Below are positions 9,001 through 18,000 of a stretch of DNA of 22,104 bases, piece by piece; position 1 is the first letter of the stretch; every line of letters begins with the position of its first letter. The DNA is from a candidate division WOR-3 bacterium (lineage in GTDB: Bacteria > Hydrothermota > UBA3072 > B12-G15), in the NCBI GenBank assembly GCA_965649055.1, contig CBFGJG010000008.1, positions 1 to 22,104 of the forward strand, read 5' to 3'. The position numbers were made by a program.

Positions 9001-12000
9001 GGGTCTTGGTCTTGCTTTTTCAGAGATCTCTGTTCATCTTGTGTTATGTCAGGATGGAGTATTTGCCGCTTTAAAGAATCAGGACCCTAAATCAATTCAG
9101 ATGAAATCTATGGAAGAAGTTTACAAAAACATATCATCAATGGGAATAAATCTCTATATTGATAGAAAATCAATGGAAGAACGAAATATAAAAGAAGATG
9201 AAATAGTTAGTGCTAAAATAATTGATGAAGAAGAATTAAAAAACCTTATAAATTCTGCAGATACAGTTCTTACTTTTTAGGAGGAAATATGAAAACTCTG
9301 TGGATCTTCCTTCATACACCAAACACAAACAATATAAAATGTGTTCAAAGAATGACAGATAGTGAAGATGCTGTTCTTTTCTTACAAAACGGTGTTTATG
9401 CAGCGAAATTGAATATTGATATAAAAAGTCCTGTATATTACCTGCGTGAAGATGTAAAAGCAAGAGGAATAAATGTGGATGAAAAATACCTTGTAGATTA
9501 TTCACAAATGATAGAACTCATTTTTAAATATGATAGGGTTGTAACTTTTTAAATTAAAATATGAGTGGAGACATAGAAATTTATAAGATAGATAATAAGG
9601 AAAAAAGGGATATTTTTCATTTTATTCAATTACCTCATTTTCTTTATAAAAATTCATCCTGTTGGGTCGCTCCATTCAACGTTGATGTTTATCTTCAATT
9701 GAATAAACTTAAGCACCCTTTTTATGAACATTCTGATGCTGATTTTTTTATTGCTATTAAAAATAATAAAGTAGTGGGAAGAATAGCCGCTATTGAAAAC
9801 AAAAGATACAATAAATACCACAATACTAATATCGCAAATTTTTATTTTTTTGATTGTGAAAATGAACAAACAGTTGCGGATAAATTGTTTGATGCTGTTT
9901 TTAACTGGGCAAAGAAAAGAGGTTTGAATACCATTGTTGGTCCTAAAGGTCTGGGTGCATTTGATGGTTACGGTATACTTATAAAGGGATTTGAACACAT
10001 GCAAACTATGAATATGCTGAATTACAACTTTGATTATTACTCCAAGTTACTTGAAAAACTTGGGTTTGAAAAAGAGGTTGATTTTGTATCTTATTATCTA
10101 CCTAAAGATAAATATAGAATACCCGAGAGGATTGAAAAAATTGCTAAAACCATTTACGATAGGGGCGAACTAAAAATATATAATTTCAAAAGTAAAAAAG
10201 AAATGTTAGGATTTGCTGAAAAGATTGGTAAACTTTATAATGCCTGCTTTATAAATAACTGGGAATATTATCCATTAACAGATAATGAGATAAGGTTCAT
10301 AGCTAAAAATATAATTTCATTTGCCGATTACAGACTTATTAAACTTATTATTTTCAAAGATGAAATCGTAGGTTTTATTTTTGCATTTCCAGATATTTCT
10401 GAAGGTATGCGCAAGGCAAAAGGTAAAATTAACCCGCTAACCATTTTTAATATCCTCATGGAAATGAGAAAAACAGATAAACTCACAGTAAATGGTATTG
10501 GTATACTCCCGGAATTCCAGGGACATGGTGGGAATGCCCTACTCTATTATGAATTGGGAAAAACTATTTTAAGATTTAAAAGATTCAAGCATATTGAGAT
10601 GCCACAGGTTGCAGAAACTGCCAAACAAATGACATTAGATATAAAAAATTTAAATGGTGAAGAATACAAAAGACATAGAATTTACAGAAAAAATATTTAA
10701 TAAATCCTTGACAAAAAATAAAAATATATTAGACTGAAGATATGAAAATTTTAAAAGAAAAATCAAGGCAAGGTAATACTGGATACAGTTTACCTGAATT
10801 AGATGTAAATAAAAAAGAAATCAAGGATTTTATTCCAGAGGATTACATAAGAAAAGAAAAACCAGATCTACCCGAGCTCTCAGAGCCAGATGTTGTAAGG
10901 CATTTTGTAAATCTATCAATACTTAATCATCATGTTGATAAAGGATTTTACCCCCTCGGTTCATGCACAATGAAATACAATCCGAAAATAAATGAAGAAC
11001 TATCAAGATTATCATATTTTATTAATATCCATCCTCTTCAGGATAATGAAACTATTCAAGGTGTATTACAATTGATATACGAATTAGAAGAAATGCTTGG
11101 TAAAGTAACAGGTTTTAATTTTGTATCTCTTCAACCAGCTGCCGGTGCACATGGAGAACTTACAGGTCTTCTTATTATGAATGCTTACCACAAAAAGAAA
11201 GGAAAGATAAGAAAAAAAGTTTTAATACCGGATTCAGCCCATGGAACAAATCCAGCATCTGCAACAAGAGCTGGTCTTGAATCAATAAAAATACCATCAA
11301 ATGAAGAAGGTATATTAACACCAGATATTCTGAAAAGATACCTTGATGATGATGTTGCAGGTCTTATGATAACAAATCCCAATACCCTTGGTATTTTCGA
11401 AGAATACATAAAAGAGATTTCTGATATATTACACGAATACGATGCAATCCTGTATATGGATGGAGCAAATCTTAATGCACTTATGGGTTACTTCAGGCCT
11501 GGTGATTCCGGTGTTGATATTTTACATCTTAATCTTCATAAAACATTCTCTGCACCGCATGGTGGAGGTGGACCAGGTGCAGGTGGAGTATGTGTTCAGG
11601 AAAAACTTGAGAGATTTTTACCAATTCCAAGGATTGTTAAAAAAGATAAATTTTATCTTGATTTTAACTATCCTGACTCAATAGGTAAGGTGATTTCATT
11701 CTATGGGAATTTCAATGTCTTTATAAAAGCATATACTTATTTGAAGATAATGGGTAAAAAAGGATTAAAATTAGCTACAGAGCAAGCTGTTATAAACGCA
11801 AATTATCTTTTAAGAATACTTGAAAAATATTATGAACTACCATATAAGAGAAGATGTATGCACGAATTTGTCCTATCAGGTTCTAATCTTAAAAAATACG
11901 GGGTAAAAACACTTGATGTAGCAAAGAGACTCCTTGATTTCGGATTACACGCACCAACCGTTTATTTCCCTTTAATTGTTCAGGAAGCTTTAATGATTGA

Positions 12001-15000: not shown

Positions 15001-18000
15001 CTTGTTATAACAGAAGGTTTTGGTAAGATGGAAATGTCAAGAAAGGCATTTGATATACTCTGCTCATGTGAAGGTAAAAGGGCATCTTGTAATGGAGCAA
15101 CACAAATCAGAGCAGGTGTTATGAGACCTGAAGTTATCATTCCAATTGAATCTAAAGAAGCTGGAGAAGTAAGTATCAAAGAGACAAAAGGACTTGAGGT
15201 TGGTGATTATGTAAGGATTATTCGTGCACCATTTTTTGGCTTAATAGGAAAGGTTGCTGAACTTCCACCTGAACTTACAGATATTGAGACAGAAGCAAAA
15301 GTAAGGGTTCTTGTTGTCCAGCTTGATGATGGTAGGAAGATAACACTCCCAAGGGCTAATGTTGAAATAATAGAAGAATAGGAGGAATAATGGAGTTCCT
15401 TTTACTTGCAGGAATAATACTTGCACTTGATACACTGAAAAACATAAATGCTATGAAGGATTCCTTCTCCACCCTAACGGCGTTAAAAGTCCCTATTGGT
15501 TTCGTTGTCCTATTAAAAGGTATATCTCTTTTATTTTATACGAAATTCCTTTTTCAGGGAATTATGGGGATAATTGCAGGGGCAATTTTAACGGTCGAAG
15601 TTTTTATTATTTTAATTAAAGACGATGATACTAGGGAAAGGGTTAGGCAGTCAATGTTAGGACTTTCAATTCCAGTTGGCTTTTTAACCCTTATTGCAGG
15701 TTTTATCGGATTATTCTTAAGATAAAACCTGATACAGAAATCACAAGAAAGATTATAGATACCTTCTGAATCCCATATATTGGTAATAAAAATAATGAAA
15801 CAAAGAAAGAACCAAAAGAAGCACCTGCGAGGTCCAGAAAATATATCTTTGCTGCTTCTTTCCTTTTTTCCCTTCCAGAAATGAATGTAGAACAGGAGTA
15901 AGCAAGGCCAACTGAAAAACCTGTTAGGAAATTTATTATAAAAGAAATGATAATATTAAAACCTTTTAATGGAATTAGGATTATAAATACATAGATAAAT
16001 GAAAGAATTAAAAAAACAACATTTAAATAATAATCCTTTGTTTTTTTCTCAAAAAAGAACCCACCTGTTGCAATTCCGAGCATAAAAGAACCAATAATTG
16101 CACTTACATACTGGTATAAAGAACCATTTATAGACTGAAACAGGAATAGTATTATTATCTCTGTAGAGATTCCAAGAAAACCAATTAAAAATACATTATA
16201 AAGAATATTTTTTCTTATAAGTGGAATTGAAAAGAAAGCTATAAAAATATAGAACGGAATTTTTTCAACAAATTTCAAAATCTTGAAAAAACCTTCATTA
16301 TATTTTAATGCAAAATATTTAACAAAAAGATAGAAAAGAATTGGGTTCTTGATTGTTGATATTTTAAAATCACCTGAAATAATATCAGAGAAGATTTTTG
16401 CCCTCTCGATAAGAAATTCCAGATATGATAAATTTAAATATTTGAATTCATAATCATCCAATCTTTTTTTTATCTCTTCTTTACTGATAAAAAAAGGAGT
16501 ATCACTGAATAAAAAAATTCCTGTTTCCATAGGGAAAAAAAGATAATGTTCAAACAATCTTAATCCAGTTTTTAAAACAGTTCCGTTTATCTCTTTTAAA
16601 CAATCATCAAGATAAATATCGGAAGATGGAATCTTCAAAACAATTATACCATCCTTTTTTAGGTATTCTTTTATCGATTGAAGAAACTCAAGTGTATAAA
16701 ACCTGTTATTAGAAATGTTATATGGTAATCCCGAATTTATGAATATGAAATCGTATTTCTTTTTATCAGAAAGGGTTAAAGGGTCTTTAAATATCCAGTT
16801 TATATTTTGGGGATAATAATCTATTAAATTTTTGTCATAAACCACGATATTTAATCTGCCAAATTTTATTAACCTTTCAGATTCGGAAGGTGTAGGAAAT
16901 CCAATTGATAAAATTTCATTTTCTTTATTGCTTCTTAAAGTAAAAGGTATAAGTTGCAATTCATCATAATATTCCTGTGGAAATGAAAATGATAGATTTC
17001 CATCTATAAATACAGATTTAACTCCGTCTCTTTCCCTAATAATATATCTATTGTACCTTGAATCAATCAATCTTAAAAACCTGTATCCAGCATATTCTCT
17101 TTCAATGCTCTTTACAACAATAAATTGAGTAAGAATAGCAGAAATTATAACAATCTGTAAAAAGTATATCTTTTTTTTCCCTCTGAATAGATATAAAAGG
17201 ATAATTAAACCATAAATTAAATAAAATCTGTAATTGAAATTAAAAAATCTAAGAAGAACATAGGAAAAGACAAAACCACCTGTAAGATTTCCCAAGGCTT
17301 CATAAATATAAGGCCTTATATAACCTTTCAAATCATCTTCTTTCCTCCATTCCCTTAATCCTCTTCCAAATAATGAACCAATTATCAGGAACAAAGGAGA
17401 AAAAATAACATAATATATTATCAAAACCTCACTTATTCTCAGAATTTCTCCAGGTGATTTGTTAAACAGAAAATGAATATTGTATGATATTAAGATGTAA
17501 AAAGGCAAAATTATAGTAAATATGGTTAAATATATAACAAAATTTCCTTTTCTTGAAGAGATAAAAACACCTAATCCATTAAATAAAAGCCATGAAGATA
17601 AGAAAATACAGGTTGAGATTTCATTGTTTGCTATAGATAAATATGTTTCTCTGATAAGTATTGATTGTGTTAAAAGACTTAAGAAACCAATGAAAAAAAG
17701 GAACATTAAAGTTTAATTGATTCTAATATTCTATTTATCTCATCTTCAACAATAGGTGAATTGTTCAACGAAACCTTCATCATAATAATATCTATTTCAT
17801 CTTTTACGACCCTTGAAAAATTAACCTCAAAATTTTTAAATTTTTCAAGTATCTTATCATACATTTTTAATTTACTTTCATAGGAAAAAACAATGTATGT
17901 TCCAGTGTTCAATGTTTTATAGATTATGGAATTCCTCCCATTTTTTGCAGAAATAAATGCCTCGTAACCGAGAATAAGCAATGTTTCTATTCCTTCGTCT

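What a model noticed while it worked through the whole genome (the two positions that open the first line are those of the whole stretch)
10742..15725. GlmL-like ATPase operon behind gcvPB is the soluble half of a nine-gene system with the DUF6754 module
gcvPB is followed by a 113-aa helical protein (g00569), a GlmL-like ASKHA ATPase (g00570) and a 373-aa protein of no Pfam/NCBIfam family (g00571), although the genome has no B12 mutase for GlmL to reactivate. In many lineages these genes stand in one operon with the glycine-cleavage genes, a small membrane protein (here g01597, C44), the DUF6754 four-gene module and a LipM-like lipoyl transferase (here C1, g00006). g00570 and g00571 form one functional unit, pointing to an undescribed ATP-using, membrane-coupled system tied to glycine cleavage.
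Evidence so far: g00570 is 66-84% identical across WOR-3, Eisenbacteria, Cloacimonadota, Latescibacterota but scores far under the cut-offs of GlmL and Or-4 (233 vs 475, 219 vs 600 bits for a relative; call 26). Of 80 g00570 loci: g00569 73, gcvPB 65, g00571 37, DUF6754 module 13. Of 77 g00571 loci: GlmL-like 53, module 41, gcv genes 31, LipM-like 16, typically gcvT-H-PA-PB-b-a-GlmL-g571-DUF6754-m9-m8-m7-lip, also in Fermentibacteria, Planctomycetota, Fidelibacterota and an archaeal bin. DUF6754 and MutL/GlmL have the same share in family (1.0) and order (0.348). Two natural GlmL-g571 fusion proteins of ~1000 aa. Complex prediction: score 0.78, best of 3 controls 0.00, runs agree in >=92% of contacts, partne [...]
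(Added by a program. Inside this text positions count along the whole contig: contig position 1 is position 1 of the stretch shown here. "Call 12" and the like, gene names such as g00115 and contig names such as C1 are that model's own, and its searches are not shown. The text may have been shortened before it was handed on; [...] marks where a part breaks off. The agent that wrote the report below was given it as the finding of a first reader that could run no searches.)

Follow-up and report, generated by a model that had tools for sequence, protein, structure and literature searches.

The report
Unstudied ATPase-driven membrane machine
Three genes behind a glycine-cleavage gene encode the ATP-using half of a conserved, untested membrane machine of many uncultured bacteria and some archaea, probably a new kind of transporter, which sits beside the glycine-cleavage genes by inheritance and not because it works with them.

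Summary
The operon is real: gcvPB, a 113-aa protein, a GlmL-like ASKHA ATPase and a 373-aa partner. The link to the DUF6754 four-gene membrane module holds. ATPase and DUF6754 are both present or both absent in 148 of 151, 124 of 125 and 28 of 28 genomes of three groups. A predicted ATPase-DUF6754 complex gave weak support (0.56; best of 3 controls 0.00). The tie to glycine cleavage fails. One genus lost the system (0 of 10) but keeps gcvP (9 of 10), the LipM-like gene (3 of 3) and the 111-aa last gene (2 of 2 loci read). gcvP lies in only 2 of 80 loci of distant relatives. The core is seven genes plus a small membrane protein, not nine. The partner folds as barrel-sandwich arms, a swivelling domain without conserved His, and KOW. 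Most genomes give one ATPase match but several module matches. Best reading (0.45): a new class of ATP-driven transporter with a shared energiser; cargo unknown. No paper names DUF6754 in the library searched. The scan noted this system before in at least seven other genomes.

The parts
10708..10735 (+). Promoter-like site (TTGACA-16-TAGACT) in the 41-bp gap before gcvPB; its position would put the start of RNA at or near the gcvPB ATG (leaderless message, inferred)
   Evidence: consensus match only, and the region has fewer such sites (9) than shuffles (mean 18.8). No Shine-Dalgarno site before the ATG.
10742..12172 (+). gcvPB, glycine decarboxylase subunit 2; neighbour, not part of the system. 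gcvT-H-PA lie on contig C24
   Evidence: NF003346 720/441 bits; kept in 9 of 10 genomes of the genus that lost the system.
12159..12500 (+). 113-aa soluble protein (a113), small subunit of the system; no family
   Evidence: In 49 of 80 and 18 of 80 loci of the partner; beside the module in archaea; missing from the two g4 gcvPB loci read.
12460..14247 (+). ASKHA (actin/Hsp70-fold) ATPase of the GlmL/hydantoinase-A lineage, 595 aa, with an alpha/beta insert and a C-terminal extension of about 115 aa that classical GlmL lacks
   Evidence: PF13941 432 bits; phosphate-1, phosphate-2 and adenosine motifs invariant or nearly so in 47 relatives; Hydantoinase_A hit in 46 of 47; 32% identical to a true GlmL. 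ATP hydrolysis is inferred from motifs.
14260..15381 (+). 373-aa partner: nested barrel-sandwich hybrid arms (about 23-150), swivelling beta/beta/alpha domain (152-300), KOW (311-373); no conserved His and no conserved Lys at the hairpin tip
   Evidence: AlphaFold2 pLDDT 94.8; PTS enzyme I Z 9.3, rmsd 3.3, 109 aligned; RraA Z 9.3, rmsd 3.6, 129 aligned; conservation over 115 rows; fused to the ATPase in P0150, P0220 and, in a paralogous lineage, L112, L113, L179, L180.
15390..15725 (+). 111-aa three-helix membrane protein; last gene of the operon but not part of the system
   Evidence: Homologues (42% identical) follow gcvPB directly in genus g4, which lacks the system; found in only 1 of the 160 partner loci.

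Best explanation
The three genes a113, ATPase and partner encode the cytoplasmic energiser of an undescribed ATP-driven membrane machine, most likely a primary transporter (importer). Its membrane part is the DUF6754-m9-m8-m7 module, encoded twice on contig C1; a 138-aa two-helix membrane protein is a usual eighth subunit in bacteria. Shown: co-inheritance, shared operons, fusions, folds, conserved ATP motifs. Inferred: ATPase and partner form one motor; it docks on the cytoplasmic alpha/beta domain of DUF6754; its nucleotide cycle moves that domain, much as ASKHA reactivases with a swivelling domain remodel their clients; this opens a path through m9, m7 and the membrane helices of DUF6754 and m8; the outward-facing alpha/beta domain of m8 and the variable FN3 region of DUF6754 receive the cargo. 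One energiser serves several paralogous modules, like shared-energiser ECF transporters (recalled analogy, no homology). The cargo is unknown; peptides or amino acids are a guess. The place behind gcvPB is inherited gene order.
For: Presence of ATPase and DUF6754 agrees in 148 of 151 genomes of the own phylum (138 both, 10 neither, 3 DUF6754 only), 124 of 125 in a second phylum (114, 10, 1) and 28 of 28 in an archaeal class (3 both; three others hold only a 470-aa classical GlmL). In five Poribacteria the parts lie at separate places yet co-occur (DUF6754 5 of 5, ATPase 4 of 5). 120 of 138 genomes give one ATPase match while 120 of 141 give two to six DUF6754 matches; up to nine in the second phylum. 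Archaea carry a compact seven-gene locus without gcv or lip genes. Complex prediction ATPase 8-595 with DUF6754 134-322: weak support, 0.56, best of 3 controls 0.00, runs agree in at least 92% of contacts, partner pLDDT at least 77; the mark was reached by 116 of 157 solved and 2 of 215 mismatched pairs, but at 0.60 or under by only 18 of the 157 and by both mismatches. Hydropathy and the positive-inside count put the DUF6754 alpha/beta domain inside and the m8 domain outside. Invariant polar residues in or next to predicted membrane helices: m8 H260, N271; DUF6754 D331, K334; m7 E34, R192; m9 R175. DUF6754 model pLDDT 92.7.
Against: No transport, ATPase activity or expression was measured. 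No subunit resembles a known transporter or binding protein by sequence. The docking score is in the range where passes are more often wrong than right unless likely beforehand. Genomes within a group are kin: the 10 g4 genomes are one loss, and matches are not copy numbers. Peptide and amino-acid genes are not significantly enriched next to the system (12 of 146 against 7 of 148 families, p = 0.24). The closest ATPase relatives by Pfam are kinase-type hydantoinase-A modules. Paralogous ATPase-partner pairs exist away from any module in the stretches read (L112-L117, L179, L180).
Confidence: 0.45

Rival explanations
1. Same partners, but no solute transport: the ATPase is a remodelling chaperone or scaffold that assembles, resets or reads out a membrane-spanning sensor or envelope machine (reactivase-like, or like the actin-fold PilM platform, recalled).
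For: ASKHA domain plus swivelling domain is the layout of the glycerol dehydratase reactivase alpha subunit (PMC7674605, passages); the partner has a swivelling fold. DUF6754 has a receptor-like layout with an extracellular region of very variable size (261 to about 1030 aa). GntR-ATPase fusions and response-regulator or ExbB/ExbD/TonB neighbours fit a sensing or envelope role.
Against: No signalling output domain travels with the system. It occurs in archaea, which have no outer membrane. Two polytopic subunits with invariant charges are more than a receptor needs (inference).
Confidence: 0.24
2. The ATPase is a kinase module like Apc-alpha or hydantoinase A: it phosphorylates a small substrate, which the membrane module imports or converts (group translocation or membrane-coupled catalysis), with the partner as mobile domain.
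For: Hydantoinase_A and Hydant_A_N hit 46 and 45 of 47 members. The order ASKHA half, alpha/beta insert, ASKHA half, C-terminal domain matches that given for Apc-alpha (PMC5214803, passages). The partner's best fold match is the phosphohistidine domain of PTS enzyme I and it has many invariant polar residues.
Against: No conserved His or Cys phospho-acceptor in the partner: no His or Cys column above 36% in 115 rows. Hydantoinase_B, the catalytic partner, is absent from the own genome and found in 1 of 8 system-bearing genomes of the order and in none of 146 neighbour families.
Confidence: 0.18
3. One reading: the system is functionally coupled to glycine cleavage or lipoylation (imports glycine or lipoate, or couples the reaction to the membrane).
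For: gcvP in 25 of 57 close loci with at least 6 kb upstream; the order gcvT-H-PA-PB-b-a-ATPase-partner-module-lip recurs in several phyla; overlapping genes here; barrel-sandwich domains resemble lipoyl domains.
Against: g4 keeps gcvP and LipM-like without the system. G022 and G099 hold the system while gcvT, PA and PB were not found. gcvP in 2 of 30 distant loci with long upstream DNA; none in the two archaeal loci. The partner has no conserved Lys at the hairpin tip. LipM octanoylates GcvH (bioRxiv 10.1101/419234, passages), which explains its place without the system. In this genome the old operon is broken between gcvPA and gcvPB.
Confidence: 0.08
4. An orphan GlmL that reactivates a coenzyme-B12 mutase missed in the incomplete genome; the module is unrelated.
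For: PF13941 432 bits; sub-threshold B12-binding hits in 11 of 47 members; genome 93.8% complete.
Against: Below all three GlmL-type cut-offs; no GlmE, GlmS or mutase-type B12 domain found; true GlmL genes sit beside B12 proteins, are about 470 aa and fall far outside the clade; presence tracks DUF6754.
Confidence: 0.03

Closest known systems
GlmL/MutL of glutamate (methylaspartate) mutase operons and Or-4 of ornithine degradation (PF13941, NF040745, NF040744, TIGR01319)
   Same: Same Pfam family and ATP motifs; 32% identical to a true GlmL between glmS and glmE. MutL/GlmL is called a chaperone for reactivation of glutamate mutase in a figure legend of PMC4682846 (passage).
   Different: Below the curated cut-offs; about 115 extra C-terminal residues; fixed 373-aa partner; no B12 mutase; tracks a membrane module instead.
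Diol/glycerol dehydratase reactivase (DdrAB/GdrAB)
   Same: ASKHA ATPase domain joined to a swivelling domain that works by remodelling a client (PMC7674605, passages). ATPase plus partner give the same two folds, split over two genes or fused.
   Different: No sequence match; no reactivase among the top 50 fold matches; no dehydratase-like beta subunit; the likely client is a membrane protein; the partner adds barrel-sandwich arms and KOW.
Acetophenone carboxylase alpha / hydantoinase A / oxoprolinase ATPase modules
   Same: Closest other Pfam families; similar domain order (PMC5214803, passages).
   Different: No Hydantoinase_B partner; phosphate-1 motif DxGSTTTK rather than DxGGT; those enzymes are soluble.
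ECF transporters with a shared energiser (recalled, not looked up)
   Same: One cytoplasmic ATPase unit and several paralogous membrane modules per genome.
   Different: ECF uses ABC ATPases; no homology of any subunit was found.

Membership tests
GlmL / Or-4 mutase accessory proteins | Score above the curated cut-off of NF040745, NF040744 or TIGR01319 | tested here: not met
   240.8/475, 224.4/600, 177.8/204
GlmL / Or-4 mutase accessory proteins | Encoded beside, or at least with, a coenzyme-B12 mutase | tested here: not met
   No GlmE/GlmS by tblastn; the only B12-binding domain is in a radical SAM protein; genome 93.8% complete
Pfam PF13941 (broad MutL/GlmL family) | Score above gathering threshold | tested here: met
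   432 bits, cut-off 27
ASKHA superfamily | Phosphate-1, phosphate-2 and adenosine motifs | tested here: met
   D14-G16-S17-T18-T20-K21, D287-G289-G290-T292-T293, G421-G423-G424 invariant or nearly so in 47 rows
ASKHA superfamily | ATP hydrolysis or phosphoryl transfer | not testable with these tools
   Needs an assay
Dehydratase reactivase (DdrAB) | ASKHA domain combined with a swivelling domain | tested here: met
   As two genes or fusions; swivelling fold at Z 9.3. Fold class only
Dehydratase reactivase (DdrAB) | Specific structural or sequence match to DdrA | tested here: inconclusive
   Not among listed fold matches or the first 25 Pfam families of the 115 members; the ATPase itself was not folded
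Hydantoinase / oxoprolinase / Apc | Hydantoinase_B-type catalytic subunit in the genome | tested here: not met
   0 in G000; 1 of 8 system-bearing genomes of the order
Phosphohistidine swivelling domains (PTS enzyme I, PPDK, RPH) | Conserved phospho-accepting His | tested here: not met
   No His column above 36% in 115 rows, none in the swivelling domain
Biotinyl/lipoyl carrier domains | Conserved Lys at the hairpin tip | tested here: not met
   Tip reads L/F-F-G-L-F; Lys at most 42% at positions 88-100
Glycine cleavage system component | Gained and lost together with gcvT/H/P | tested here: not met
   gcvP without system in 9 of 10 g4 genomes; system without detectable gcv in G022 and G099
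ECF / ABC transporters | ABC ATPase, T or S component homology | tested here: not met
   No such Pfam match for any subunit
Primary active transporter (any) | ATP-dependent solute flux | not testable with these tools
   Needs reconstitution

The most novel reading that the evidence does not exclude
A new class of primary active transporter powered by an actin/Hsp70-fold ATPase instead of an ABC, P-type or rotary ATPase: one cytoplasmic motor (ATPase plus swivelling partner), derived from the GlmL/hydantoinase-A lineage, docks in turn on up to nine paralogous four-subunit membrane modules, in many uncultured bacterial phyla and some archaea.
Probability: 0.4. Interest if true: 0.92.

Novelty: categorically new. 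Interest (0 to 1): 0.72.

Why it matters
No membrane transporter driven by an actin-fold ATPase is known to me (recalled). The system is nearly universal in two sampled phyla (141 of 151 and 115 of 125 genomes), conserved at 58-74% identity in the ATPase across phyla and an archaeon, and sits under a misleading B12-chaperone label. The clean loss in one genus fixes its membership (seven or eight genes) and removes glycine cleavage as the lead. The compact archaeal locus and single-module operons give ready constructs for a first test.

Tried and rejected
Solved-structure searches by sequence gave nothing for the ATPase, only KOW and barrel-sandwich hits for the partner, only FN3 for DUF6754, nothing useful for m8. 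All three fold searches with the DUF6754 model were filled by its FN3 domain, so the fold family of the cytoplasmic domain is untested; no further model could be made. Idea that DUF6754 and m8, or m9 and m7, are inverted repeats: no profile match. Idea that the DUF6754 domain is DHS-like (ETF, AHAS) and that the ATPase insert mimics GlmS: hhalign scores no better than 100 random own proteins (single-sequence templates, low power). Peptide or amino-acid cargo from neighbours: not enriched (p = 0.24; families classed by me; loci above 57% GC left out; 146 of 161 adjacent and 148 of 188 far clusters scanned; gcvP and LipM-like clusters left out of the adjacent set; Pfam cut-offs 1e-10 and 1e-15, all counted hits pass 1e-15). 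The tree is the quick version only, with long-branch warnings. A cluster look-up for ten distant partners gave almost no taxonomy. Paper searches: DUF6754 0 papers; GlmL/MutL/reactivat/glutamate mutase 1 paper; GlmL or PF13941 as whole words, 20 of 125 listed, all unrelated; WOR-3 with glycine cleavage 2 papers, listing only; for background. The library lacks most subscription papers and I read no supplements, so a description there cannot be excluded.
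Full report
Observation. The five ORFs lie as described on the + strand. gcvPB passes its equivalog cut-off. 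The 113-aa gene overlaps gcvPB by 14 nt and the ATPase gene by 41 nt; the partner and the 111-aa gene follow after 12 and 8 nt with AGGAGG sites. A promoter-like site ends six bases before the gcvPB start (consensus match only). The ATPase belongs to PF13941 (432 bits) but misses the GlmL, Or-4 and TIGR01319 cut-offs. The genome (93.8% complete) shows no glutamate mutase subunits and one B12-binding domain, in a radical SAM protein. The DUF6754-m9-m8-m7 module stands twice in tandem on C1 before a LipM-like gene; the 138-aa membrane gene is on C44; gcvT-H-PA are on C24.

The partner. The family is large: 8000 of 8000 scored candidates and 2584 representatives at 50% identity. A model from 115 sequences is confident (pLDDT 94.8). 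It has nested barrel-sandwich arms, a swivelling beta/beta/alpha domain (best matches PTS enzyme I Z 9.3, rmsd 3.3, 109 aligned; RraA Z 9.3, rmsd 3.6, 129 aligned; rifampin phosphotransferase Z 8.5-8.8) and a KOW domain. These Z values show a fold class, not a function. The family has no conserved His, so it is no phosphohistidine carrier, and the hairpin tip holds a hydrophobic motif in place of a lipoyl Lys. Invariant polar residues cluster in the swivelling domain and the C-terminal motif. Fusions to the ATPase occur in the main lineage (P0150, P0220) and in a paralogous lineage (L112, L113, L179, L180).

The ATPase. The three ASKHA motifs are conserved in 47 relatives; identity to the 42 main-type relatives is 58-74%. 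A true GlmL between glmS and glmE is 474 aa and 32% identical. In a quick tree of 57 rows the main type forms one clade (support 97) with the two true GlmL rows far outside on long branches (treat with care). After PF13941 the commonest Pfam hits are Hydantoinase_A (46 of 47) and Hydant_A_N (45 of 47). The domain order is like that given for Apc-alpha (PMC5214803, passages), but the Hydantoinase_B partner is missing from the own genome and from 7 of 8 system-bearing genomes of the order.

The link to the membrane module. In 80 genome loci of the partner, the ATPase is present in 58, a113 in 49, DUF6754 in 42, m9 in 41, m8 and m7 in 37 each. Whole-genome searches are stronger. Own phylum, 151 genomes: 138 hold both ATPase and DUF6754, 10 neither, 3 DUF6754 only. 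A second phylum, 125 genomes: 114 both, 10 neither, 1 DUF6754 only; some matches are fragments and one genome in this tally, G236, is unpublished. An archaeal class, 28 genomes: the same three hold both; three others hold only a 470-aa classical GlmL, which in the one locus read lies near a B12-binding protein. In five Poribacteria partner, ATPase (4 of 5) and DUF6754 (5 of 5) lie at separate places, so co-inheritance does not depend on one operon. Kin are not independent: these tables stand for a few losses and gains. A complex prediction of the ATPase with the DUF6754 cytoplasmic domain gave weak support: 0.56, best of 3 controls 0.00, at least 92% contact agreement, partner pLDDT at least 77; 116 of 157 solved and 2 of 215 mismatched pairs reached the mark, but at 0.60 or under only 18 of the 157 and both mismatches.

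The link to glycine cleavage. Genus g4 of the same order is a natural knockout. It lacks DUF6754, ATPase and m8 (0 of 10 each), the partner (0 of 5) and the 138-aa protein (0 of 3). It keeps gcvP (9 of 10) and the LipM-like gene (3 of 3, 50-51% identical). In the two g4 loci read in full, gcvPB is followed directly by the homologue of the 111-aa gene: a113, ATPase and partner are cleanly missing. Conversely G022 (97%) and G099 (95%) hold the system while gcvT, gcvPA and gcvPB were not found; three other genomes lacking gcvPB hold gcvT or gcvPA, so those gaps look like assembly gaps. In 80 metagenome loci ranked by a distant partner, the ATPase is present in 46 and DUF6754 in 12, but gcvP in 2 and LipM-like in 1; among loci with at least 6 kb upstream, gcvP is in 25 of 57 close against 2 of 30 distant loci. 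The two archaeal loci carry all seven core genes with no gcv or lip gene, though the one archaeal genome tested has gcvP elsewhere. LipM octanoylates GcvH (bioRxiv 10.1101/419234, passages). The simplest reading is that the system was lodged inside a gcvT-H-PA-PB...lipM operon in an ancestor of several related phyla, and that this genome holds the broken pieces.

The membrane module. DUF6754 folds as FN3, one membrane helix, a six-stranded alpha/beta domain and a second membrane helix (pLDDT 92.7). m8 has a 225-residue domain between two helices; m9 and m7 have four to six predicted helices. The positive-inside count puts the DUF6754 domain inside and the m8 domain outside (inference). The inside domain is very conserved, while the outside region ranges from absent in archaea to several hundred residues. 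Invariant polar residues lie in or near predicted helices. No subunit matched a known transporter, and the fold searches were swamped by FN3. Most genomes give one ATPase match (120 of 138) but two to six DUF6754 matches (120 of 141), up to nine in the second phylum; matches are not exact copy numbers.

Mechanism. Shown: membership, co-inheritance, folds, motifs. Inferred: ATPase and partner form a motor that docks on the inner DUF6754 domain and drives the membrane module; one motor serves several modules. The pairing of an ASKHA domain with a swivelling domain is the layout of the glycerol dehydratase reactivase, which remodels its client (PMC7674605, passages); I take this as how it may work, not as membership. 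I put transport at 0.45, a non-transport sensor or envelope machine at 0.24, kinase-coupled chemistry at 0.18, coupling to glycine cleavage at 0.08. Peptidases and amino-acid enzymes flank the system in the archaeal loci and in several metagenome loci, but the count is not significant (12 of 146 against 7 of 148, p = 0.24), so the cargo stays open.

Novelty. No paper in the searched library names DUF6754, and searches on GlmL/MutL returned nothing on this system among the papers listed. Subscription papers and supplements were not seen. The scan's own notes describe the same system in at least seven other genomes; they are unchecked leads, and several already doubted the glycine link. Verdict: real, outside known system types, mechanism unproven; interest 0.72.

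Noticed in passing
L111:9101-11218, L119:3004-5181: A paralogous ATPase is fused in frame to an N-terminal GntR helix-turn-helix (YtrA-like by recall) and paired with a short partner lacking KOW; in L111 it stands right before two DUF6754 modules. Frames of 705-743 aa recur in five genomes.
   Followed up: partly
L204, L234, L252: Two ATPase-partner pairs in tandem (one partner of about 455 aa with an extra barrel-sandwich repeat), behind S58, C26 and M20-like peptidase genes.
   Followed up: partly
L173:8300-11389, L174:867-3719, L175:4937-8008, L118:7763-9886: DUF6754 proteins with open frames of 700-1030 aa whose N-terminal part matches no Pfam family beyond FN3; true starts not checked in these GC-rich loci.
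   Followed up: partly
window 7839-9552: TusA, DsrE_2, two DsrE/F and DsrH genes in a row, a sulfur-relay-like set, behind a 742-aa gene that reads like HypF (recalled, not scanned).
   Followed up: no
window 17706-19427 (-): 573-aa protein with no family, only a weak ACT-like hit; followed by a 667-aa membrane protein with a weak spermidine-synthase-like domain (15703-17706).
   Followed up: no
L121:10423-15544: DUF4388 gene, small genes and ExbB-ExbD-ExbD-TonB directly behind a DUF6754 module; DUF4388-like and TonB-dependent receptor genes recur near the system in other loci.
   Followed up: no
L152:8268-12482: Archaeal classical GlmL (469 aa) in a row with an octopine-dehydrogenase-like gene and a 561-aa B12-binding protein.
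   Followed up: no
L177:5778-7007, L178:9581-10816: A GlgC/GlgD-like nucleotidyltransferase gene stands directly upstream of a DUF6754 module in two genomes and near one in L121.
   Followed up: no
window 10700-10742: gcvPB has no Shine-Dalgarno site and a promoter-like site just upstream, which suggests a leaderless message.
   Followed up: partly
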